Shown here piece by piece: positions 3,779-62,497 of a DNA stretch of 64,000 bases; within the stretch, counting starts at the first letter, position 1; every line of letters starts with the position of its first letter. Position numbers and translations under genes: made by a program. The stretch is from a bacterium (lineage in GTDB: Bacteria > Patescibacteriota > Microgenomatia > Woykebacterales > RBG-16-39-9b). Under the pieces are notes generated by a model, which did no database searches, was not told where the DNA came from, and saw only the letters and a list, made by a program, of their open reading frames with translations. The DNA is taken from contig JAUYID010000009.1 in the NCBI GenBank assembly GCA_030704665.1, positions 394,460-458,459 of the forward strand. The letters run 5' to 3'.

Positions 3779-4562
3779 CGAGGAAACGAGTTCGCAGTTT
3801 TCCTTCAGAGCTTCTTAACAAAAGTCCTGCTGCAAGGGTCAGTAAGACTGGAAGTACGGGAAGGCTGCTACCAGTCACAGGTAGACCACCGACATTTTCT
3901 CCGAGGACTGTCCCGGGTGTTTTAGGAGTTCCCGGCTCTTCTGGATTAGTTCCTGGTGTTGGAGTAGGTCCGACGTTGTTGTTATTGCCAGTATTTCCGA
4001 TCCCGATAGTGAAATTGATATCACCAGTGCTGATCGTTGCTTCCCCAGTATTTTTATCAGCTTCGTTGTTACCAGTGTTCAGATCAACCTGGGCTTGGTT
4101 GTTTATGTTCATCACGTTACTCTGATTGAGAGTCAAGGAGTTGTTTATATCAACCCTTGAAGTGTTGGTTGAGTTAGCACCGGTCTGGGTATTGGCGGAT
4201 GATGACGCTTCTGAGCTTCCACAACACGTTGGTGGGTTGATGTTGCTGCTGTTGAGTGTGTTATTTACAGTCAGAGAACCGTTGATGTCTCCGGTAGTGA
4301 TCGAGGCATCCCCAGTGTTTTTGCTAGCTTGGTTGCCTCCAGTGTTGGCGCTGATTTTGATTGTATTAACTACATTTGCTTCATTGTTTGAAGAAATAGT
4401 AACTTGGTTTGATGTTTCAACAGAGGCGGTATTTTCAGAATCAGCTCCAGTAGTGTCGTTGGTAGCGCTGTCAGCCAAAGCTAACGGTGCGGTCAGCAAC
4501 AGGGCTGCGATCGTGGAGCCGATAAGGGAGCTTTTTACAACTAGATTTTTCGTATGTACCAC
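3774..4562 (-). CDS. secreted cell-surface repeat protein with C-terminal LPXTG sortase anchor
   Basis: Signal peptide (LLLTAPLALADSA), then N/T/G/S-rich repeats of the form ANTGGNQASKNTGDASITTGD. The C-terminus is LPVTG plus a hydrophobic stretch plus RSSEGKLRTRF, a classical cell-wall sorting signal. Confidence 0.75.
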   Translation of the reverse strand: MVHTKNLVVKSSLIGSTIAALLLTAPLALADSATNDTTGADSENTASVETSNQVTISSNNEANVVNTIKISANTGGNQASKNTGDASITTGDINGSLTVNNTLNSSNINPPTCCGSSEASSSANTQTGANSTNTSRVDINNSLTLNQSNVMNINNQAQVDLNTGNNEADKNTGEATISTGDINFTIGIGNTGNNNNVGPTPTPGTNPEEPGTPKTPGTVLGENVGGLPVTGSSLPVLPVLLTLAAGLLLRSSEGKLRTRFLA

Positions 4563-6769
4563 CTCCCTCTGACCAATTTCAGAATTGTTTGGGCAGAGGC
4601 GGCAGTAATAATCAAGATAAAGATAAGGTTGCGCAGTGAGAGTCCACCCGAGGCTTGGTTGACGACCTGAGTAATATTTGGTGTTCCAAAGTTGTCCGAA
4701 ACACCCATGACTAAGGATTTTTTGTCTTGGCTTTCGGCACTGGCGCTCTGCTCGCCCGTGCTGCCGGGGTTGGAACCTGTATTGGAAGATCCTGTTGTGG
4801 TGTTACTACCCAGGATAGAGTTGATCACTTTATTGCTTGGGTTGTTTTTTCCGTGATCTAAGCCAGTAGAGCCAATGTTTTCTGCTGGCTTGCCGTCAGG
4901 AAAGATATCCCCATTGAAGCTTCCAAAAATATTCACAATACTTACGATCATACGAGAACCTAGAAAAGTGTTGTTCAGTATATTGAGGACGTTGGCAGCG
5001 ACGTTGACGTCTCCGGTCTTGATCGAAGCATTGCCGGTGTTCTTGCTAGCTTGGTTGCCTCCAGTGTTGGCGTTGATCTGAATATTGTTGTCAACAGTAC
5101 CTGAGTTGTTGACTTGAACAGTATTTGTGTTGTTGGCGCTAGAGTCAGCACTGTTGCTGCTGTCAGCTCCTGTTTGGTTGTTGACTGCCATCAGAGAGCC
5201 GTCAGGACCAACTACAAAGCTAAAGAAAGGAGAAGCTACTCCATCCTCATTCAGACTCATCAACTGACCAGTCCAGTTACCTAAATTGTTTACCAAAACG
5301 AGCCAGAGAGTACCGTCACTTCCAGCGGTGGTAGTGTTGGCGATGGTTGCTGTTTTAAGGTTGGCGTTGACATCCCCAGTTTGAATACTGGAGGTCCCAG
5401 TGTTTTTGTCAGCTGTATTATCACCAGTGTTGGCGTTGAGATTTATTCCGTTCAAGACGTTGGCGGTGTTGTTTACTCCAAGAGTTGAGCTGTTGTTAGT
5501 TGAGCTATCGGCAAAGTTGGCTGAATCGGAACCAGTAGTTAAGTTGGCGGCATTGAGGCTTTCCGGTGAAAAGATTGTCGAAGTTTCTCCGACTGGGGGT
5601 GGATTGAAGACAATATCTCCATTTAAGTTTCCGAAAACGTTGACTACCCCAAGCAAGAGTTCACCGGCTCCACCCAGAAAAGTGTTGTTCAAAAAGTTGA
5701 TCACGTTGACGGCAACATTGGCATCTCCCGTAGTAATCGTCCCGTCACCGGTGTTTTTACTGGCTGAGTTGTCACCGGTGTTGGCATCTAGAGTCGTAGA
5801 GTTGACCAGATTGCCGTTGTTGTCGATAAAGTAAGTGTTTGAAGTGTTGGAAGTTGCGGAAGCAGTGTTGCTACTCTCAGCTCCGGTGGTGTCGTTGCTA
5901 CTGGCTTGGCCAGTTCCAGCGGCAGTTTGGAGAACTTGAAGATCATCGAAATTCAAGATTAAGTCTCCGCTTTGATCATCCATGACATTGAAAACTTGAG
6001 CTCCCACGTTAACATTGTTACCAACGTTGATGGCGGTGAGAGTCAGGTCAGCATCCCCAGTAACAACCGAGCCGTCGCCAGTATTTTTGTCGGCAGTATT
6101 GTCACCAGAATTGGCTGTCAAAGTGGTCAGATTTTGTACATCGAGGTCGTTGTCAATATAAACATCAGTTGTGCTGTTGCTTTCTGAAGAAGCGTCGTTT
6201 TCCGAACCTGCTCCAGTGTTGGAATTGCTTGCCTCACCACTGACAGCGAGACAAGTTGAGATCGCACAAATGCTTGGATCCATTGCTCCAATTGAAACTT
6301 TGTTTGCATCTGAGCTTAGGTTGGCGACCAAACCTGCATCTCCGCTGACAACCGAGCCGTCGCCAGTGTTTTTATCTGAGCTGCTCTCACCGGTGTTCGC
6401 TTCCCCACTTGTAACGTTGAGGAGACTAGCGGTGTTGTCGACGTTGACCGAAGTATCAGAGTTAGTTGTGGTACTAGCGCTATTGGTTGAATCTGCTCCG
6501 GTGTTGGAATTGGTAGCGGCCGCGGCGGCCGCGGCTGCCTCGGCGGCGGCAGCTTCGGCTTCAGCCTTGCGGGCAGCTCTTTCGGCGGTCCATTTTTCGT
6601 ACCAGTTGTTTGGGTCATTCCAATCGATTTGGCTGCTGTCAGTTGTCGTAGTCGTAGTAGTGCCCGTCTCTCCTTCTGCTAGTACTGGGGCAACCAAACC
6701 AAAGCTTGAATAAGCTACCAAGAGTAAGCTGAGTAAAAGGCTAATTGTTTTTTGACTAAATTTTTTCAT
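4541..6769 (-). CDS. large secreted repeat protein (742 aa), paralogous to the neighbouring genes
   Basis: Signal peptide (LLLSLLLVAYSSFGLVAPVLAEG), a poly-Thr and Ala-rich linker, then at least 6 copies of the NTGDNxAxKNTGDGSVxTGDA unit alternating with NVxNxLNNTFLG segments. A C-terminal hydrophobic segment is followed by a basic tail. Confidence 0.75.
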   Translation of the reverse strand: MKKFSQKTISLLLSLLLVAYSSFGLVAPVLAEGETGTTTTTTTDSSQIDWNDPNNWYEKWTAERAARKAEAEAAAAEAAAAAAAATNSNTGADSTNSASTTTNSDTSVNVDNTASLLNVTSGEANTGESSSDKNTGDGSVVSGDAGLVANLSSDANKVSIGAMDPSICAISTCLAVSGEASNSNTGAGSENDASSESNSTTDVYIDNDLDVQNLTTLTANSGDNTADKNTGDGSVVTGDADLTLTAINVGNNVNVGAQVFNVMDDQSGDLILNFDDLQVLQTAAGTGQASSNDTTGAESSNTASATSNTSNTYFIDNNGNLVNSTTLDANTGDNSASKNTGDGTITTGDANVAVNVINFLNNTFLGGAGELLLGVVNVFGNLNGDIVFNPPPVGETSTIFSPESLNAANLTTGSDSANFADSSTNNSSTLGVNNTANVLNGINLNANTGDNTADKNTGTSSIQTGDVNANLKTATIANTTTAGSDGTLWLVLVNNLGNWTGQLMSLNEDGVASPFFSFVVGPDGSLMAVNNQTGADSSNSADSSANNTNTVQVNNSGTVDNNIQINANTGGNQASKNTGNASIKTGDVNVAANVLNILNNTFLGSRMIVSIVNIFGSFNGDIFPDGKPAENIGSTGLDHGKNNPSNKVINSILGSNTTTGSSNTGSNPGSTGEQSASAESQDKKSLVMGVSDNFGTPNITQVVNQASGGLSLRNLIFILIITAASAQTILKLVRGRWYIRKI

Positions 6770-6906: not shown

Positions 6907-8070
6907 TTAGTTGCTGCTGTTTACATTTACGTCTACATCGACGTTGTTGTTGCTGCCATCAGCCTCGTCTCCGTTAACGGAGTTTTCGTTGGCACTGCTG
7001 GAAACTTCAACATCAACATCAGCATCACCAGTGTGCTGGTCGTCAGCTGTGTTTTTGTTGGTTTCGTTGTCACCAGTGTTTGCACTGATTTTTCCGCTGT
7101 TCTTCACGTTGGCCTCGTTGTCTTGATCGATGTCAAGATCGTTGTCAGCAGAAGCTTCAGCTTTGTTTTTTGAATCCGCACCAGTTTTTTCATTGGCGGC
7201 TTCGAGTTCAACATCACAGCAAGCGTCGACGTTTGCTGAGTTGGAGTTGGCATTGTTTTCAATTCCAACCTCAACTTTAGCGTCACCAGTGTCGACAGAG
7301 CCTTCACCAGTGTTTTTGTTTGCTTCGTTGTCTCCGGTGTTGGCTTCAACGTCTACGTCATTGCAGAGGTTGGCGTCGTTATCTTGGTCGATATCGACAT
7401 CGGTTTCTACAGATGCGTCGGCGTAGTTTTCAGAATCAGCTCCAGTGGTGTCATTGGAAGCAGAAACACTTCCACCGTCACCCCCGCTGATGCTAACTGA
7501 ATTCTCGTTTACCATATTGGCGATGCTGACAACTACTTCAGCGTCTCCAGTGGTGACGTTACCTTCACCAGTGTTTTTGTTTGCTTCGTTGTCTCCGGTG
7601 TTTGAGCTGACACTTACGCTGTTGAAAACGTTGGCCTCGTTGTCTTGATCGACATCGATGTCGTTGTCAACTGAAGCTTCAGCAATGTTCTTGGAGTCGG
7701 CACCAGTTTTGGTGTTAGAAGCTGAGACATCACCAGTACAAGCTCCACAGTTGTCAAGACTGACAGTGTTGGAGTTGGCGGTGTTGCTCAAAGAAACTGT
7801 GACGGAAGCGTCACCAGTGGTGACGGAACCTTCGCCAGTGTTCTTGTTTGCTGTGTTTCCACCAGTGTTTGAAGAGACGCTAATGTTGTTTACAATATTA
7901 GCTTCATTCTTCTGATCGATATCTACATCGTTATTAGTGCTGACTTCCGCTTCATTGTAGGAACCGTAACCCGTAGTGTCGTTGCTAGCAGTTCCCGCCA
8001 AAGCTGGAGTCAAAGAGAAAGCAAGGGATGCTACCGCAGATGCTGCAGCAGCAATTACTTTTTTGTTCAT
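6907..8070 (-). CDS. secreted acidic repeat protein (387 aa), same repeat family
   Basis: Signal peptide (ASLAFSLTPALAGTAS) and four copies of SSNTGDNEANKNTGEGxVTTGDAxVxV. Asp/Asn rich, consistent with calcium binding. SD AAAGGGGGTG lies upstream of the ATG. Confidence 0.7.
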   Translation of the reverse strand: MNKKVIAAAASAVASLAFSLTPALAGTASNDTTGYGSYNEAEVSTNNDVDIDQKNEANIVNNISVSSNTGGNTANKNTGEGSVTTGDASVTVSLSNTANSNTVSLDNCGACTGDVSASNTKTGADSKNIAEASVDNDIDVDQDNEANVFNSVSVSSNTGDNEANKNTGEGNVTTGDAEVVVSIANMVNENSVSISGGDGGSVSASNDTTGADSENYADASVETDVDIDQDNDANLCNDVDVEANTGDNEANKNTGEGSVDTGDAKVEVGIENNANSNSANVDACCDVELEAANEKTGADSKNKAEASADNDLDIDQDNEANVKNSGKISANTGDNETNKNTADDQHTGDADVDVEVSSSANENSVNGDEADGSNNNVDVDVNVNSSN

Positions 8071-13326: not shown

Positions 13327-13680
13327 ATGAAGATGATGACAAACCCCGAATTTGAAGCCCTTGTCGTAGAGGCGCTGGAAGAAATACCGGCTTTCTTTAA
13401 AGAAAAACTGGACAACGTTGATTTAGTTATCGAAGATTGGCCAGAGAGAAACCCGCCGGGTCAGTTTTTGCTCGGACTTTATCAAGGAGTCCCCCAAACT
13501 GCTTGGGGACGTGGGAGTGTCACTGTTCTTCCTGACAAAATCACTATTTATCAAAAACCGATTGAAATAGTTTCAGCTGGGGATCCGGAAAGAATTAAAA
13601 CTCAGGCGATTGAAACAGTCCAGCACGAGATCGCTCATCACTTCGGGATTTCTGACGAAAGATTAAGAGAACTGAAGTAG
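13327..13680 (+). CDS. zincin-like metallopeptidase (DUF1025/SprT-like minimal HExxH protein)
   Basis: HEIAHHFG is an HExxH zinc-binding motif in a roughly 117-aa protein. Start set at the internal Met (MKMMTNPEF); the upstream extension of the track ORF lies antisense to the neighbouring gene. Confidence 0.5.
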   Translation: MKMMTNPEFEALVVEALEEIPAFFKEKLDNVDLVIEDWPERNPPGQFLLGLYQGVPQTAWGRGSVTVLPDKITIYQKPIEIVSAGDPERIKTQAIETVQHEIAHHFGISDERLRELK

Positions 13681-18187: not shown

Positions 18188-18730
18188 CTACTTGGATTTA
18201 CCCCGCCTCTTTTCTCTCTTCTTTCCTCTCCAAACTTCTTCGGTGACGAGAAGGAGGAGTCCGGAAAGGACTACGATATCTCCGGGACTGGCTATCACAC
18301 CACCACGAATTAGTTTGATGACGATTTGATCTCTTAGCGCAGTAAGGTTGCCCTCACCCTCTTCGACGACAACGTTTTTTGTTTGCGGCGCCCACGCCCC
18401 AGCTTCATAGTTTAGAGCGTAATCTGAGTTGATCGCTCTAGCTAGGACGGGTCTTTCTACCGGCATGAGCCCACCGTTGGCGAGTATCACGGAAAGATTC
18501 GTAGCCAAACCCACAAACATAACCACTACTCCGAGGCGATCGCGGTAAATCCAGAGCACTATCGGAGCGCAGGCAATGGTCAAGGGGACAAGGATCCGAA
18601 CCGTCAGGTCTGTGTCCGCGAGGCGGATAGCGGCAAACTGAACTACAAGTAGTAATAGCGCCGCTACGGCACTGCAGCCCTTCAACAGTTCTCGATCTAC
18701 CGCCTGTTTCTTGGTCAGAGATCCTTGCAT
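18188..18730 (-). CDS. membrane protein, unknown function (ANGGLMPV motif)
   Basis: 180 aa with 3-4 TM helices. Confidence 0.4.
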   Translation of the reverse strand: MQGSLTKKQAVDRELLKGCSAVAALLLLVVQFAAIRLADTDLTVRILVPLTIACAPIVLWIYRDRLGVVVMFVGLATNLSVILANGGLMPVERPVLARAINSDYALNYEAGAWAPQTKNVVVEEGEGNLTALRDQIVIKLIRGGVIASPGDIVVLSGLLLLVTEEVWRGKKREKRRGKSK

Positions 18731-18969: not shown

Positions 18970-19037
18970 GTGATCGACCCTCCTTGGTTATTGAATTGTT
19001 CTTGCTCATTATACAGTTTGTGGGGAAATTTTGATTA

Positions 19038-19095
19038 AAATAATAAAGGCGGTGGGCAGGGGTTAAAAAATGATTGTCTCTCCCCTGCCCGCACC
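19038..19095 (-). terminator. intrinsic terminator downstream of the Flp pilin gene
   Basis: GC-rich 12-bp stem (GGTGGGCAGGGG/CCCCTGCCCGCACC) followed on the minus strand by a T/A-rich tract. Confidence 0.5.
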
Positions 19096-19114
19096 TTTCT
19101 TCCAAATTACCGGT

Positions 19115-19294
19115 TTACCAGTCGAAGAGGAGATCAGCGATTGGTTCTCGGAAGGCGACGACTGCTGCCACGACGACGGCGACGGCGACAACTGCTATGA
19201 TCAGACCGTACTCGGCAAGCTCTTGACCACCTTCCCTCTTCAGTTTCTGACCGAAGAGTGTCAGTTGTACCCAAAGACCGAGAATCAAGTTCAT
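19115..19294 (-). CDS. Flp/Fap-family type IVb prepilin (59 aa), missed by the ORF track
   Basis: MNLILGLWVQLTLFGQKLKREGG/QELAEYGLIIAVVAVAVVVA contains the G-XXXX-EY Flp processing motif and a hydrophobic stem. SD GGAAAGGAAG lies 8 nt upstream. The track's plus-strand ORF 19070..19405 is its antisense artefact. Confidence 0.6.
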   Translation of the reverse strand: MNLILGLWVQLTLFGQKLKREGGQELAEYGLIIAVVAVAVVVAAVVAFREPIADLLFDW

Positions 19295-19337
19295 CCGGTT
19301 TTCTTCCTTTCCTTTTCCTACCTGCTTGTCTGCAGGG

Positions 19338-20486
19338 CTATTCGCTTCGACTGTCTGTGGGCGGGTCGAAGTTCGGATGCTCTTCTCCCACAGGTACTAC
19401 AGTGACGGTTATCTGGTTGGGACGCAGGTTCTCAGCCAGAGCTTCAGCGAGAGCAATAGCAGGGGCAACCTCGGATGGCCCCGTCACCTTATCATCGATC
19501 CAAACTTTGAGGACAGCTTTGAAACCGTCGTAGTCCACTAATGCAAGGTCACGGACTGCAGGGTGTGCTCCGATGGTATCGTCTACGATCGTAAGATCGA
19601 TGGGTTTGCCACTGTTGCTCTTGATCTGGAGGCGGAAATCGACGAGACTATTTTCCTCAGTGCTTGCGGTCTCACTTTCGTTCGCAGCCTCTACATGCAC
19701 TTCCCGCAAAGCTTCCAGCAAGGTTTCACCAAGTGGACTGAGCCCTTCGTCTTCGGCCGGGTCGGAGTCAGCCTGATCTCTTTCTCTTGATAGAGTCAGG
19801 GGTAGATCTTCTTCGCGCTGTAGTTCAGGGTCGACCTCTGCCTCAGCGGTCGGGCCAGACTCTTCGCCTGGAGACTGAGAGCCGTGTTCGTGTCGAAGTG
19901 ACGGAAAGAGTTCGTCGAATTGGCCAAATAGCTCCTCGAGAAACTCTAGTTTGTCGGAATTCTCCATGACCACGATGAGGGCCTCAATATCCTCGTCTCT
20001 GACACCAAAACGCTGCCCGTCGATCTCGAAGTAGAGAATCATCGAGTCGAGTCCGTCTTCCCAAAATACCCCAGCTTCGATACGGCGCAGACGCTTCTTC
20101 AAGACGCGTTTCAAGGCTTTCACCTTGAGGTCTGTTGGGCCGCGGAGCAATTCCGTCTGCTCGTACCGGCGCTTTTGGCGTCGAAGTCTCTGCGCCTCGT
20201 CCTGTTCTTTGAGTCTCTTCTCTCCTTCAGAAGTGAGTTCGTGGAGAAACTTCATGTTTCCACCAACGACTGCTGAGGGAAAGCGCTCTTGGAGTAATCC
20301 TGCAGCGGTGAGCACGCGCACATGCTTTTGGCAAGTGCGCAGATAGATCTTTACCCGCCCTTGCGTTTGGGTTGGTAGGATCTGACAAACCATTGAAGTG
20401 GTTAGTGGCCCGAGCTTGAAAGCGGCCAAGACTTCGTAGCCAATTTCCCGCATCGGCTGGACTTGTGGTAGGCGTTTGCCGTTCAT
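19338..20486 (-). CDS. hypothetical protein with N-terminal winged-helix-like domain and acidic central region
   Basis: 382 aa. The N-terminus (GYEVLAAFKLGPLTTSMVCQIL...) looks like a wHTH. Confidence 0.4.
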   Translation of the reverse strand: MNGKRLPQVQPMREIGYEVLAAFKLGPLTTSMVCQILPTQTQGRVKIYLRTCQKHVRVLTAAGLLQERFPSAVVGGNMKFLHELTSEGEKRLKEQDEAQRLRRQKRRYEQTELLRGPTDLKVKALKRVLKKRLRRIEAGVFWEDGLDSMILYFEIDGQRFGVRDEDIEALIVVMENSDKLEFLEELFGQFDELFPSLRHEHGSQSPGEESGPTAEAEVDPELQREEDLPLTLSRERDQADSDPAEDEGLSPLGETLLEALREVHVEAANESETASTEENSLVDFRLQIKSNSGKPIDLTIVDDTIGAHPAVRDLALVDYDGFKAVLKVWIDDKVTGPSEVAPAIALAEALAENLRPNQITVTVVPVGEEHPNFDPPTDSRSE

Positions 20487-21194: not shown

Positions 21195-21407
21195 ATGCGA
21201 CAAAAAATTATTAAAGTTGGCAATTCGGCTGCAGTTACCATCCCAAAAAATATTCTTGAGGAAAAAAATCTTAAGATTGGTGACTTAGCTGAGTTTGATA
21301 TTCAGTCGATTAGCAAAAAAACAAAAGTTACCCCAGAATTTGTTGAATGGGTTGATAAGTATATCGAAAACAACCGCCCAGCACTTGAAGAGCTAGCCAA
21401 CAAATAA
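21195..21407 (+). CDS. AbrB/MazE/SpoVT-fold antitoxin
   Basis: IIKVGNSAAVTIPKNIL is the swapped-hairpin AbrB-type DNA-binding motif. 70 aa; 6 nt upstream of the doc gene. Confidence 0.8.
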   Translation: MRQKIIKVGNSAAVTIPKNILEEKNLKIGDLAEFDIQSISKKTKVTPEFVEWVDKYIENNRPALEELANK

Positions 21408-21413
21408 AGCAAC

Positions 21414-21791
21414 ATGAAATATCCTTCTTTGGACGAAGTAGTTGCTTTGCATTTTCGTATTACTGAAAAGACAGGCGGTTCTCAAGGAGTTCGAGACTGG
21501 GGCCTTTTAGCCTCGGCTTTAGGTCGTCCCCAAGCGAGTTTTGCTGGTGAAGATCTCTACCCTTCTTTGGAACTTAAAGCAGCGGCTCTAATCCAGTCTT
21601 TATCCTCCAACCATCCTTTTGTTGATGGTAATAAACGAACAGCTTTAGCAACACTGGAATATTTTTTGTTTTTAAATAAAGGTGAATTAAGAGCAACACA
21701 AAGAGAAAGGGTCGACTTTACACTTTGGGTGGAGAACGAAAAACCAAGTCTCGAAGAAATTTCACTTTGGATCAAGAAACACTTTAAATAA
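21414..21791 (+). CDS. doc: Doc (death-on-curing) Fic-fold toxin
   Basis: HPFVDGNKRTALA is the Fic/Doc active-site motif. 125 aa. Confidence 0.85.
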   Translation: MKYPSLDEVVALHFRITEKTGGSQGVRDWGLLASALGRPQASFAGEDLYPSLELKAAALIQSLSSNHPFVDGNKRTALATLEYFLFLNKGELRATQRERVDFTLWVENEKPSLEEISLWIKKHFK

Positions 21792-23339: not shown

Positions 23340-23567
23340 CTTGCGTTCAAGCATAGTCTGACGACTATTTGCTTGATCTTGGGATTTTCAAAAGAAGTTG
23401 AGTTTTAAAGTCCCGCAACCACTGCGTGGTTGTAGGCTAATCTTTGAGGGCTCTATCAAGAAAAGCTTGCGTTCTACGAACTTGGGATTTTCGAAAGAGA
23501 ATAAGTTTTAAAGTCCCGCAACTGCTGCGCAGCTGTAGGCCTCTTTGAGGGCTAGATCAAGAAAAGC
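23340..23567. repeat. tandem direct repeat (about 126 bp then about 102 bp) with internal hairpin
   Basis: Both copies begin CTTGCGTTC...CTTGGGATTTTC...GTTTTAAAGTCCCGCAAC[hairpin]GTAGGC...TTTGAGGGCT..ATCAAGAAAAGC. The hairpin stems differ by compensatory changes (CCAC/GTGG versus CTGC/GCAG). Confidence 0.7.
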
Positions 23568-38103: not shown

Positions 38104-39336
38104 TTAGTTGTTGTTCCTCCTCCTAAATTGCCTCATGAAAACATCTTCCGGCCGACCGATACGACGGCGAGGGCCCGGTTCTGGCAGAGGGTTGAGCATT
38201 TCACGTAGGCGTTTGTCGTTCCGTCGTGCTTCTGGTGAATCTTGTCCTGTCACCACGAAGTAAAAGACAGGGTGACCGTTTTCCGGTATCAACTGGGCCA
38301 GGGTTGACTCGAAATGCATCTCCCGAAAGGTGCGTAGCGCGTCCACCAGAAGACCCTTGCGATCCTGAGTTTTCAGGAACTCATAGCGGAGACCACCGCC
38401 AGTGATATCGCCATCTGCCTGGGCAAGCATCCGGAAGCGTCGACGCAGGGATCGGCGTGGCCCTCTCGGCATTTTGGGAAGCCGTTTCTTGATTCTGCGT
38501 TTGAACTCCTCGAGCCCAACACTCTCGACCAAGTCGTTTCTTATTCCCAGCAGAGCTCCGATTCTCTGGTCAATGATCTTGATTGTCTCCGGCCCTTCAT
38601 AGAGACCCTCTAGGTTGACATCAAGTTGGTGAGGGTCGAAGTAGCCTGACATAGCGTACTCACCTAGAAAGACCAGAGCGGCTGGGCCACCTGCCACTTC
38701 AATGGCCTGGTGGAAAGGAAAACCGGCGTGTTTTTGCACTTCTGCCGATTCCAGTGCCCCAAGCCACTTTGAGTTCTGGGAAGCTCCGGTGAGAACGTTG
38801 TGGATCTCGAGATCAACATCGAAGACTGTCATCACCTTTCTCGCCTGGAGGTACAAGATAAAGTGAATAACCTCCTCTGGTGTTGGGCCTCCCTTCTGGA
38901 CTTTGGGCTCAACCAAGTAGCCAAGTAGTCCAGGTCTGCCTCGTGGTTTGGCTCCAGAGCCTTTGATAAGGTGACAGAATGCCAAACCAACTCCAAGTTC
39001 GCTAGCCAGATCAATTTGTTCGTCAGCCAGAGCCATGACCGAGTTTGGAACCGGAACGGTGGATCCAATGACGATGACCGTACCGGCCCGTACTACTGGC
39101 AGAATATCAGCAATGATGTGCCAGGTTTCTGCCATTGGCATGACAAAGATCCAGATCAGATCCGCACCCGCAGCAGCTTCGCGATTGCTCAGAGAGCTGC
39201 TGTCAGCTGGATCCGACTTGAACAACGGTATCCCGAGCTCTTCATGCCAGGGATTGATGTCTGCTTTTGCCATGGAGCTTGAACTGCCGATGACAGCAAC
39301 AGATTTGGGTATCCAGGTTGGAACCTTGAGTGCCAA
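38104..39336 (-). CDS. hypothetical protein with Rossmann-like N-terminus and ACT-like C-terminus (TyrA-like?)
   Basis: VAVIGSSSSMAKA glycine-rich loop and a C-terminal VFYFVVTGQDSPEARR ACT-like segment. GC-rich. Confidence 0.35.
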   Translation of the reverse strand: MALKVPTWIPKSVAVIGSSSSMAKADINPWHEELGIPLFKSDPADSSSLSNREAAAGADLIWIFVMPMAETWHIIADILPVVRAGTVIVIGSTVPVPNSVMALADEQIDLASELGVGLAFCHLIKGSGAKPRGRPGLLGYLVEPKVQKGGPTPEEVIHFILYLQARKVMTVFDVDLEIHNVLTGASQNSKWLGALESAEVQKHAGFPFHQAIEVAGGPAALVFLGEYAMSGYFDPHQLDVNLEGLYEGPETIKIIDQRIGALLGIRNDLVESVGLEEFKRRIKKRLPKMPRGPRRSLRRRFRMLAQADGDITGGGLRYEFLKTQDRKGLLVDALRTFREMHFESTLAQLIPENGHPVFYFVVTGQDSPEARRNDKRLREMLNPLPEPGPRRRIGRPEDVFMRQFRRRNNN

Positions 39337-61465: not shown

Positions 61466-62497
61466 ATGTTCCCAATCGGCGAACCAGGCGAAAACCCAGT
61501 AACCCCTGAAGAAATTGTTGGTATCCCCTCCCCTGCTCCAAAAACTGAAGATGAGGAAAAAAGAAAGTCCCCGGATCGAGTCGTTCCTCCTGAAGCCCAA
61601 AAAGCTTTTGAAGACTATATCAAGACAGAGCTAACTAGAAAAGATCACCCCTTTTACTTTTCAGACGAAGAAGAAAAAGACACAGCTAATTTGTTCTTTG
61701 CTCAAAGGGGTAGCAACGGAGAGGTGGCAAGGCGTTATTTCCGTTATCTTAAAGATGATGAGTCTGATGAACCTATTAAATTTTTTACCCAAAGCACTAT
61801 GCATATTAACAAAGGTTATGCGGCTATTTACAAAGCAGATGTAGCACCAAACTCTCAAAGAGGTTATTTCCAAGGCTATATGGATAGTGACGCTACTGTG
61901 TTGAGAGCAACTCCCAAAGGACTGGATTTTGTTCGCGTCTTTGATGATCAGACCATGATACTCAACCACAATCCCGAGAATCAGCTAAATTACCTAGCTT
62001 TCCACAAGGTTGGCAATATCAAAAGTTTGAGTGAAATAATAGAGCAAGCTGATTCAACAGATGCTCAGCCAGTGGCGGCAGAAGCCCCTTCTTTTGCATT
62101 GGTTTTTTCTCCCGATACTCTGAACACAATGGTTTATGACGAAGCGGGAAATCGGAAAATTACTGAAGTGAAAATGGTTGAGGAATTCGCCGTCGATGGC
62201 AGGCGTGTTCAAGTAGCCAATGCTGGTGAAACTGTTAAACTCGTTTTTTACCTACCGGATGATCCGAACAAAGTTGACTATGAGATTACTCTACCAAGAA
62301 AACAAGAGACTGAGGAGTACTGGACTGGTGATATGAACCAGACGAAGCCAATCAGGAGATACACTTGGGAAAAGGATCTTATTCCCGAGCCTTTGCGGAC
62401 GAACGTGCATGCCCCTCAAGAACTCGATGATGCTTGGAAGCGGGCCGATCTAGCCCGAACTATTGGAATAAAAATAGAAAAGAATTTAGCTGCCTAG
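61466..62497 (+). CDS. hypothetical protein (343 aa)
   Basis: No motif recognised. Confidence 0.4.
   Translation: MFPIGEPGENPVTPEEIVGIPSPAPKTEDEEKRKSPDRVVPPEAQKAFEDYIKTELTRKDHPFYFSDEEEKDTANLFFAQRGSNGEVARRYFRYLKDDESDEPIKFFTQSTMHINKGYAAIYKADVAPNSQRGYFQGYMDSDATVLRATPKGLDFVRVFDDQTMILNHNPENQLNYLAFHKVGNIKSLSEIIEQADSTDAQPVAAEAPSFALVFSPDTLNTMVYDEAGNRKITEVKMVEEFAVDGRRVQVANAGETVKLVFYLPDDPNKVDYEITLPRKQETEEYWTGDMNQTKPIRRYTWEKDLIPEPLRTNVHAPQELDDAWKRADLARTIGIKIEKNLAA

What the first reader, a model, noticed from the sequence alone, without database searches (positions are those of the whole stretch)
19115..19294. Unannotated Flp/Fap-type prepilin gene hidden under a spurious plus-strand ORF
The 59-aa minus-strand ORF MNLILGLWVQLTLFGQKLKREGG|QELAEYGLIIAVVAVAVVVAAVVAF... 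carries the diagnostic G-XXXX-EY processing site and hydrophobic stem of Flp pilins of Tad (tight adherence) systems. It has a strong SD and is followed by a GC-rich terminator hairpin. No tad ATPase, secretin or prepilin peptidase is visible in this window, so the pilin may be an orphan or its partners lie elsewhere. The adjacent membrane protein 18188..18730 is unassigned.
Basis: partly seen in the sequence, partly recalled or inferred. Interest (0 to 1): 0.55.

Follow-up and report, generated by a model that had tools for sequence, protein, structure and literature searches.

The report
Orphan Flp pilin gene in CPR bacterium
The 59-codon minus-strand ORF is a real, divergent gene for a Flp-type (Tad pilus) prepilin in a small-genome Patescibacteria bacterium, but none of the machinery needed to cut or assemble it lies within these 64 kb, and the neighbouring membrane protein is not the missing peptidase.

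Summary
The ORF at 19115..19294(-) exists exactly as quoted. It is a genuine Flp-family prepilin homologue, not a chance hydrophobic peptide. Pfam Flp_Fap alone is sub-threshold (14.3 vs 32.2 bits). However, a profile of relatives built without the query scores it 67.5 bits (next window ORF 3.6; best of 2,000 shuffles 7.6). 81 of its 150 nearest family representatives hit Flp_Fap. The family profile also hits the solved Tad pilins 8u1k and 8u2b (E about 1e-7). Substitutions against 44 homologues fall 58% on third codon positions of this frame, so the plus-strand ORF is an antisense shadow. Relatives head canonical Tad operons in at least nine loci. The window itself has no T2SSE, T2SSF, RcpC, TadE or A24 gene. 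The host is a CPR/Patescibacteria MAG, while all close relatives of the pilin come from high-GC contigs. The gene is not unannotated: GenBank lists it as a hypothetical protein (MDP2671280.1). The neighbour 18188..18730 is DUF5317. It has no A24 sequence or fold signal, forms a separate transcription unit, and its linkage to flp is not conserved. Whether the genome has Tad machinery could not be tested. Verdict: an ordinary new member of a known family, modestly interesting for its host.

The parts
19115..19294 (-). flp-family prepilin CDS (59 codons plus TAA); GenBank MDP2671280.1, locus tag Q8P13_02345
   Evidence: ORF and translation. Leave-out family HMM 67.5 bits. 81 of 150 relatives hit PF04964. 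Family profile hits solved Tad pilins 8u1k and 8u2b. 58% of substitutions fall on codon position 3 of this frame.
19226..19294 (-). Predicted leader peptide, residues 1-23 (MNLILGLWVQLTLFGQKLKREGG), with cleavage predicted after G23
   Evidence: G23, Q24, E28 and Y29 are at least 90% conserved in 150 relatives. 139 of 150 have G-x4-E[YF], with a median leader of 25 residues. E28-Y29 align to positions 5-6 of the solved mature pilins. Cleavage itself is inferred.
19118..19225 (-). Predicted mature pilin, 36 residues (QELAEYGLIIAVVAVAVVVAAVVAFREPIADLLFDW)
   Evidence: AF2 model: helix 3-47 and helix 49-57, pLDDT 96 over residues 31-50. It is at the short extreme of the family: median mature length is 44, and only 3 of 139 are 36 or shorter. 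It lacks the C-x-[DG]-G-[ST]-C tail of most relatives, but its tail resembles that of L011/L012.
19299..19319 (-). Purine-rich Shine-Dalgarno-like tract; the AGGAAG core at 19303..19308 ends 8 nt before the ATG
   Evidence: Read directly from the sequence. Neighbouring genes use AAGGAGG-type SDs at similar spacing.
19037..19098 (-). Terminator-like GC-rich hairpin plus U-rich tail, 17 nt after the stop codon
   Evidence: RNA fold -30.6 kcal/mol, z = -3.0; the stem includes 9 consecutive pairs (8 G-C, 1 A-U), followed by UUUAUUAUUUU. Not found by the consensus scan because the loop exceeds 8 nt.
19338..20486 (-). Upstream 382-aa ORF of unknown function, 43 nt from the flp start; probably co-transcribed with flp
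   Evidence: No terminator or promoter consensus between the two genes. Only a weak Replic_Relax hit (E = 0.095) and no PHROG hit. Co-transcription is inferred.
19070..19405 (+). 111-aa plus-strand ORF: the antisense shadow of flp, not a gene
   Evidence: Substitutions fall 58% on its codon position 1. Its only 'homologues' are antisense ORFs over other flp genes. It is not called in the Logan annotation.
19008..19015 (-). TGTATAAT (extended -10-like), between the flp terminator and the 84-aa/DUF5317 genes; it marks a separate transcription unit
   Evidence: Read from the sequence. Not flagged by the consensus scan, which requires a -35 element. Inference only.
18188..18730 (-). Neighbour, not part of the system: DUF5317 membrane protein (GenBank MDP2671278.1); not an A24 prepilin peptidase
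   Evidence: PF17248 54.6 bits and no A24 hit at E <= 1. AF2 pLDDT 87.8, four TM helices plus a small beta domain. No PDB fold match at E <= 0.001. No A24 in the PDB profile search. Relatives sit beside nuo operons with no pilin.

Best explanation
The ORF at 19115..19294(-) is a bona fide, divergent and unusually short member of the Flp/Fap (type IVc, Tad) pilin family, in a Patescibacteria (CPR) genome.

Shown:
- It is homologous to Flp pilins, with the class III signal in the correct register.
- Its reading frame is under purifying selection.
- It has host-like base composition.
- It has plausible translation and termination signals.

Inferred mechanism:
- The gene is transcribed as the last gene of a two-gene unit with the upstream 382-aa ORF.
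- The 59-aa prepilin inserts into the membrane.
- A TadV/CpaA-type A24 aspartyl peptidase cuts after Gly23, releasing a 36-residue mature pilin that begins Q-E-L-A-E-Y.
- The hydrophobic helix, with Glu at +5, is polymerised into a thin filament by a TadA-type ATPase on a TadB/TadC platform.

All of that machinery must be encoded outside this 64-kb window. The adjacent DUF5317 gene plays no demonstrable part.
For: Identity:
- A leave-out profile of 149 relatives scores the ORF 67.5 bits (E = 2.6e-20). The next best of 699 window ORFs scores 3.6 bits, and the best of 2,000 shuffles scores 7.6 bits.
- The family has 1,552 representative clusters at E <= 1e-3.
- 81 of the top 150 hit PF04964 (best 4e-19), with no rival family.
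- The family profile hits the solved Tad pilins 8u1k PilA (9e-8) and 8u2b/8ucr Flp (2e-7).
- The query's own two best PDB hits are the same proteins, with E28-Y29 on mature positions 5-6.
- G23, Q24, E28 and Y29 are at least 90% conserved.

Real gene:
- Substitutions against 44 homologous genes are 25/18/58% at codon positions 1/2/3.
- GC3 is 0.59 against 0.52 +/- 0.06 expected from host usage, while all relatives' contigs are 57-70% GC. This implies long residence in the host.
- It is called by both PGAP and the Logan gene caller.
- It has an SD-like tract and a hairpin with a U-tail.

Family function: relatives head Tad operons (Flp, RcpC/CpaB, TadZ, T2SSE, two T2SSF) on P0002's contig, in L013 and L027, and have Tad genes adjacent in L015, L017, L020, L024, L026 and L036.

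Dispersed flp copies away from Tad genes also exist in relatives (L002, L016, L008, L011, L029), so an flp gene distant from its machinery is normal.
Against: - PF04964 itself is far below its gathering score (14.3 vs 32.2 bits), tied with the archaeal Class_IIIsignal model.
- No Tad ATPase, platform, RcpC, TadE-like pseudopilin or A24 peptidase is in the 64 kb.
- No other class III signal ORF is in the window.
- The mature part (36 aa) is at the short extreme, and the conserved Cys-containing tail is missing.
- No close orthologue from another CPR genome was found. All relatives come from high-GC, non-CPR-like contigs.
- The literature searched describes T4aP but not Tad in Patescibacteria (PMC11623550, PMC10469934).
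- The selection signal sums over both lineages, so it cannot prove current function in this one.
- The relatives in the leave-out profile were first collected with a profile that included the query.
Confidence: 0.62

Rival explanations
1. Stranded relic. The gene is a genuine flp homologue acquired long ago from a high-GC (Chloroflexota-like) donor, but this reduced CPR genome has no Tad machinery. The intact ORF is then either drifting towards loss or makes a small membrane peptide that is never assembled into a filament.
For: - No Tad gene in the 64 kb.
- Nearest relatives are all on 57-70% GC contigs, and the one named genome is a Dehalococcoidia MAG.
- The C-terminal Cys motif is lost and the mature part is at the short extreme.
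- Neighbouring DUF5317 and Zincin_1 also have their best relatives on high-GC contigs.
- GC3 is mildly raised across 14.5-21 kb.
- TM7x, the best-studied CPR bacterium, has only T4aP (PMC11623550).
Against: - The ORF is intact, with start, SD-like tract and terminator.
- 24 of 28 core residues are identical to relatives, even though third codon positions differ at 13-14 of 28 codons.
- Composition is fully ameliorated to the host. That implies long retention, which is unexpected for a useless gene in a 0.94-Mb genome.
- A short tail like this occurs in other family members (L011, L012).
Confidence: 0.22
2. Cross-system use. The Flp-like prepilin is processed by the PilD-type A24 peptidase and polymerised by the T4aP machinery (PilB/PilC) that Patescibacteria typically encode, rather than by a dedicated Tad system.
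For: - Most Patescibacteria MAGs encode PilBCDT, including PilD (PMC10469934; PMC11623550).
- The prepilin keeps Gly at -1 and Glu at +5, the two features shared by all class III signals.
- No Tad genes are in the window.
Against: - No T4aP gene or T4a pilin is in this window either.
- From my own knowledge (not checked here), in Pseudomonas aeruginosa Flp processing needs the dedicated FppA peptidase rather than PilD.
- In all informative relatives the pilin is tied to Tad-type, not Pil-type, genes.
Confidence: 0.12
3. Chance resemblance. The ORF is a small hydrophobic ORF, or not a gene at all, that merely mimics the G-x4-EY motif; alternatively the plus-strand 111-aa ORF is the real gene.
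For: - PF04964 is sub-threshold.
- The bare motif arises in about 4% of random 64-kb windows.
Against: - 67.5 bits against a profile that excludes the ORF, versus 7.6 bits for the best of 2,000 shuffles.
- 78% identity to P0002 across 61% of the query.
- Substitutions concentrate on codon position 3 of the minus-strand frame, which is position 1 of the plus-strand ORF.
- Two independent gene callers chose the minus-strand ORF.
Confidence: 0.01

Closest known systems
Flp/Fap pilins of Tad (type IVc) pili, Pfam PF04964. Examples: Caulobacter PilA (PDB 8u1k) and the 'Flp family type IVb pilin' of PDB 8u2b/8ucr.
   Same: - Short prepilin (59 aa).
- Class III leader ending in Gly, with Glu-Tyr at +5/+6 in the same register as the solved mature pilins.
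- About 20 hydrophobic residues predicted as one helix.
- Profile-level homology.
   Different: - Its own PF04964 score is below the gathering threshold.
- Residue +1 is Gln, as in 138 of 139 subfamily members.
- The mature part is only 36 aa.
- No tad genes lie within 64 kb.
- The host is a Patescibacteria genome.
The 'G|QTLAEYGLI' Flp subfamily of high-GC, Chloroflexota-like organisms (P0002-P0004, L002-L036). These pilins often occur in tandem arrays and often head Flp-RcpC-TadZ-TadA-TadB-TadC operons.
   Same: - 24 of 28 identical residues across the cleavage site and hydrophobic stem.
- Similar leader length (23 residues vs a median of 25).
- A Phe-Arg-Glu boundary after the stem.
   Different: - GQELAEY instead of GQTLAEY.
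- Lacks the C-terminal C-L-D-G-[ST]-C motif.
- Single copy rather than a tandem array.
- 53% GC against 57-70% for the relatives' contigs.
- No adjacent RcpC or Tad genes.
Archaeal class III signal peptide proteins (PF04021; pilins and archaellins processed by PibD/FlaK/EppA)
   Same: A Gly|Gln cleavage context and a hydrophobic helix; weak tie score of 14.3 bits.
   Different: - Below the 23.7-bit cutoff.
- Only 4 of 150 relatives hit PF04021, against 81 for Flp_Fap.
- The host is bacterial.
A24 prepilin peptidases (TadV/CpaA, PilD, FlaK), considered for the neighbour 18188..18730
   Same: A small polytopic membrane protein next to a prepilin gene, with an invariant S-P-G-D motif at the start of a TM helix that superficially recalls GxGD.
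   Different: - It belongs to DUF5317, with no A24 hit.
- Four TM helices plus a beta domain, with no fold match to FlaK, presenilin or anything else in the PDB.
- No A24 chain found by profile search of the PDB.
- Relatives are syntenic with nuo, ferredoxin and peroxiredoxin genes, not with pilins.
- Separated from flp by a terminator and a promoter-like site.

Membership tests
Flp/Fap pilin (PF04964; Tad / type IVc pilin) | Score at or above Pfam's gathering threshold for PF04964 | tested here: not met
   14.3 bits, E = 0.036, against a cutoff of 32.2; only residues 28-44 match. No NCBIfam Flp hit.
Flp/Fap pilin (PF04964; Tad / type IVc pilin) | Demonstrable homology to accepted family members (profile or transitive) | tested here: met
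   81 of the 150 nearest representatives hit PF04964 at E <= 1e-3, best 4e-19. Leave-out HMM 67.5 bits against a shuffle maximum of 7.6. Family profile hits the solved Flp pilins 8u1k and 8u2b at about 1e-7.
Flp/Fap pilin (PF04964; Tad / type IVc pilin) | Short prepilin with a class III leader ending in Gly and the G/XXXXEY processing motif, followed by about 20 hydrophobic residues | tested here: met
   59 aa; G23|QELAEY29, then GLIIAVVAVAVVVAAVVAF. The motif columns are at least 90% conserved in relatives. The register matches mature positions 5-6 in the solved pilins. It is the only such ORF in the window.
Flp/Fap pilin (PF04964; Tad / type IVc pilin) | Genetic association with tad/cpa assembly genes (tadV, rcpC/cpaB, tadZ, tadA, tadB, tadC) | tested here: not met
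   None within the 64-kb window, by Pfam scans of 38 ORFs and by tblastn with RcpC/TadA/TadB/TadC probes (best E = 0.3). The feature is met for relatives. The rest of the 938-kb contig could not be read.
Flp/Fap pilin (PF04964; Tad / type IVc pilin) | Cleavage by a TadV/CpaA-type peptidase and assembly into a filament | not testable with these tools
   Requires the whole genome and experiments.
Archaeal class III signal peptide (PF04021) | Score at or above the gathering threshold; relatives in the same family | tested here: not met
   14.3 bits against 23.7. Only 4 of 150 relatives hit it.
Peptidase A24 (prepilin peptidase), for ORF 18188..18730 | Sequence match to Peptidase_A24 (PF01478) or to solved A24/GxGD proteases | tested here: not met
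   No A24 hit at E <= 1; instead DUF5317 at 54.6 bits. A profile of 31 homologues against PDB sequences finds no peptidase.
Peptidase A24 (prepilin peptidase), for ORF 18188..18730 | Polytopic GxGD-protease fold, with two catalytic Asp residues in the membrane core | tested here: not met
   The confident AF2 model (pLDDT 87.8, pTM 0.79) has four TM helices plus a small beta domain. Foldseek against the PDB gives no match at E <= 0.001 and no FlaK or presenilin hit. The invariant residues D134 and S-P-G-D151 exist, but not in an A24 context.
Peptidase A24 (prepilin peptidase), for ORF 18188..18730 | Conserved linkage to pilin or pilus genes | tested here: not met
   Five loci of 45-50% identical relatives lie between a nuo operon and ferredoxin/peroxiredoxin genes, with no pilin. 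No DUF5317 is found in any of the 27 flp loci.

The most novel reading that the evidence does not exclude
A Patescibacteria episymbiont has kept, for a long time and under selection, a lone Flp-type pilin of Chloroflexota-like ancestry with no Tad system of its own. It would then either thread the pilin through its T4aP machinery or use it as a small membrane or surface peptide in host interaction. This would be an example of pilin exchange between type IV filament classes in a reduced genome.
Probability: 0.12. Interest if true: 0.55.

Novelty: new member of a known kind. Interest (0 to 1): 0.27.

Why it matters
It upgrades a GenBank 'hypothetical protein' to a Flp-family prepilin and shows why threshold-based annotation missed it. 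It also documents a large, coherent 'G|Q-T-L-A-E-Y' Flp subfamily. If the host genome does carry Tad machinery, this adds a second class of type IV filament to Patescibacteria, whose known surface appendages are T4a pili used for host attachment. If it does not, the gene is a case of an orphan pilin retained in a minimal genome. In either case the practical consequence is small. The finding is correct but ordinary.

Tried and rejected
1. DUF5317 as a cryptic A24 peptidase. Pfam, a PDB profile search, an AF2 model plus Foldseek and synteny of relatives were all negative. The SPGD motif is only a superficial resemblance.

2. Recent horizontal transfer. Codon usage is not foreign (p = 0.14). DNA identity to the nearest genes is only about 78%, with third positions heavily diverged. 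So any transfer was old.

3. C-terminal truncation or frameshift. No remnant of the CLDGSC tail appears in other frames (read), and L011/L012 have similar short tails.

4. Foldseek with the pilin model gave no hits. This is uninformative for a single helix.

5. Prophage or mobile-element origin. PHROGs found only a ParB-like hit for the 459-aa neighbour. No direct repeats flank the region.

6. Locating the rest of the genome. The genome-contig scan did not return this MAG, and the look-up of encoding contigs returned only an 11-kb Logan contig. The whole-genome Tad search was therefore impossible.

7. Literature. No paper mentions DUF5317, and none links Flp pilins to Patescibacteria.

8. Rfam and tRNA scans of the window were empty.

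Full report
**What is there.**
- An AGGAAG core within a purine-rich tract ends 8 nt before the ATG.
- Seventeen nt after the stop codon lies a GC-rich hairpin (-30.6 kcal/mol, z = -3.0 against 200 shuffles), followed by UUUAUUAUUUU. The consensus terminator scan missed it only because its loop exceeds 8 nt.
- The gene lies 43 nt downstream of a 382-aa ORF of unknown function, with no terminator between them. Co-transcription is therefore likely, though this is inferred.
- Past the hairpin there is a TGTATAAT box (19008..19015), ahead of the overlapping 84-aa and DUF5317 genes. Those two genes therefore form a separate transcription unit (inferred).

**Is it annotated?** Yes, contrary to the finding's title. 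The identical protein is GenBank MDP2671280.1, 'MAG: hypothetical protein Q8P13_02345 [bacterium]', on a 938,369-bp contig. An independent Logan assembly calls the same 59-aa gene and does not call the plus-strand 111-aa ORF. What was missing is a functional name.

**Is it an Flp pilin?** Pfam alone does not settle it. Flp_Fap scores 14.3 bits (E = 0.036, gathering cutoff 32.2), tied with the archaeal Class_IIIsignal model. NCBIfam has nothing relevant. Family-level evidence is decisive.
- The nearest database proteins are 70-78% identical across the cleavage site and hydrophobic stem. They are named Flp pilin, and one carries PF04964.
- A profile of these four sequences finds 1,552 representative clusters at E <= 1e-3 among 1.84 billion proteins. 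Almost all are 55-110 aa.
- Of the top 150, 81 hit PF04964 at E <= 1e-3 (best 4e-19), and no other family competes.
- G23, Q24, E28 and Y29 are at least 90% conserved.
- 139 of 150 carry G-x4-E[YF], with Gln at +1 in 138 and a median leader of 25 residues against 23 here.
- An HMM built from 149 relatives without the query scores the ORF at 67.5 bits (E = 2.6e-20). The next best of the 699 window ORFs gets 3.6 bits, and the best of 2,000 shuffles of the query gets 7.6 bits.
- The family profile hits the only solved Tad-pilus subunits in the PDB: 8u1k PilA (9e-8) and 8u2b/8ucr 'Flp family type IVb pilin' (2e-7).
- The query's own two best PDB hits are the same proteins. They place E28-Y29 on mature positions 5-6, the register expected for cleavage after G23.
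- The bare motif would arise in about 4% of random 64-kb windows, so the profile evidence carries the claim.
- The AF2 model is a long helix (residues 3-47) plus a short one (49-57), with pLDDT 96 over the hydrophobic core.

**Which strand is the gene?** Against 44 homologous genes, substitutions in the 28-codon core fall 25/18/58% on codon positions 1/2/3 of the minus-strand frame. In the plus-strand ORF's frame the same substitutions fall mostly on position 1. The plus-strand ORF's only 'homologues' are antisense ORFs over other flp genes. It is a shadow ORF.

**What do relatives do?**
- P0002's contig reads sigma factor, Flp, RcpC/CpaB, TadZ, T2SSE, two T2SSF.
- L013 and L027 show the same Tad operon.
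- tblastn with their RcpC, TadA, TadB and TadC finds Tad genes beside the pilins in L015, L017, L020, L024, L026 and L036.
- Other copies are dispersed. There are tandem triplets in the Dehalococcoidia MAG L002 and in L016 with no Tad gene within 10 kb, a pair next to a GT87 glycosyltransferase, and copies behind a Zincin_1 gene.
- An flp gene away from its machinery is therefore normal in this subfamily.

**Host and history.**
- RarA in the window is 72-79% identical to proteins named Saccharimonadales, Patescibacteria group or Woykebacteria, and a DUF5656 protein is present. Together with the 0.94-Mb contig, this indicates a CPR/Patescibacteria genome.
- Every locus carrying a relative of the pilin or of DUF5317 is 57-70% GC, and the one named genome is Dehalococcoidia.
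- The window gene is 53% GC with host-like codon usage (GC3 0.59 against 0.52 +/- 0.06 expected, p = 0.14).
- It is only about 78% identical in DNA to its nearest relatives, with 13-14 of 28 third positions changed.
- If it came by transfer, that was long ago. Retention of 24 of 28 core residues since then argues that it has been useful.

**Machinery.**
- Pfam scans of 38 window ORFs, including every multi-TM ORF of at least 100 aa not nested in a larger scanned gene, found no T2SSE, T2SSF, RcpC, TadE, secretin or A24.
- Six-frame tblastn with Tad probes gave nothing better than E = 0.3.
- No other class III signal ORF exists in the window.
- The remaining ~874 kb of the contig could not be read with these tools.
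- Papers in the library describe T4aP with PilD as typical of Patescibacteria, and only T4aP in TM7x (PMC11623550, PMC10469934). None links Flp to this group.

**The neighbour at 18188..18730.** It is a DUF5317 protein (54.6 bits) with no A24 signal.
- Thirty relatives share invariant ANGGLMP, L-x-D and S-P-G-D motifs.
- The AF2 model is confident (pLDDT 87.8, pTM 0.79): four TM helices plus a small beta domain.
- It has no PDB neighbour at E <= 0.001, and no peptidase appears in a PDB profile search.
- In five loci its 45-50% identical relatives sit between a nuo operon and ferredoxin/peroxiredoxin genes, without any pilin.
- None of the 27 flp loci has a DUF5317 gene.
- The A24 suggestion is rejected.

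**Verdict.** This is a correct identification of a divergent, short Flp-family prepilin, and a new member of a known kind. Its identity is near certain. Its function in this host depends on machinery that could not be checked. Interest is modest.

Noticed in passing
window 13327..13680 (+); L029 9489..9857, L022 3449..3856, L033 724..1092: A Zincin_1 (PF06262) gene in the window has 41-42% identical homologues lying immediately upstream of Flp pilin genes in three metagenome loci (probably one lineage). In the window it is about 5.4 kb from flp and divergent from a C39 peptidase gene. This could be coincidence or an Flp-associated accessory protein.
   Followed up: partly
window 23375..23567: Two tandem copies of about 100 nt (83-92% identical) lie in the intergenic region. 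Each has a hairpin whose stem differs between copies at two positions on both sides (CAACCAC...GTGGTTG vs CAACTGC...GCAGCTG), which looks compensatory by eye. There is no Rfam hit. The independent Logan contig ends exactly here.
   Followed up: partly
window 18188..18730 (-); L003-L007: DUF5317 gives a confident model with no structural neighbour in the PDB. It has invariant ANGGLMP and S-P-G-D motifs, and conserved synteny in high-GC relatives (divergent from a nuo operon, next to ferredoxin and peroxiredoxin). No paper in the library mentions the family.
   Followed up: partly
window 13.3-21 kb: A patch of genes (ParB-like 459 aa, 85 aa, 99 aa, DUF5317, 84 aa, flp, 382 aa, VanZ-like) has GC3 of 0.53-0.72 against about 0.48 for reference genes, though the EamA gene inside this span is 0.45. 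Three genes here (flp, DUF5317, Zincin_1) have their best relatives on high-GC, non-CPR contigs. This may be an old horizontally acquired patch. The 382-aa ORF has only a weak Replic_Relax hit.
   Followed up: partly
family alignment A2; L002, L010, L014, L019, L021: The 'G|QTLAEYGLI' Flp subfamily has Gln at +1 in 138 of 139 members and usually a C-terminal C-L-[DG]-G-[ST]-C motif. It is often present as two or three tandem paralogues. The window protein is single-copy and lacks the Cys motif.
   Followed up: yes
window 21195..21791 (+): An AbrB/MazE-like antitoxin (70 aa) and a Fic-domain protein (125 aa) form an apparent toxin-antitoxin pair about 2 kb from flp.
   Followed up: no
window 4541..6769 (-), 6907..8070 (-), 38104..39336 (-), 61466..62497 (+): Several large ORFs (742, 387, 410 and 343 aa) have no Pfam hit at E <= 0.01, which is typical of CPR genomes. 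The window also has no tRNA gene and no Rfam family at gathering score in 64 kb.
   Followed up: no
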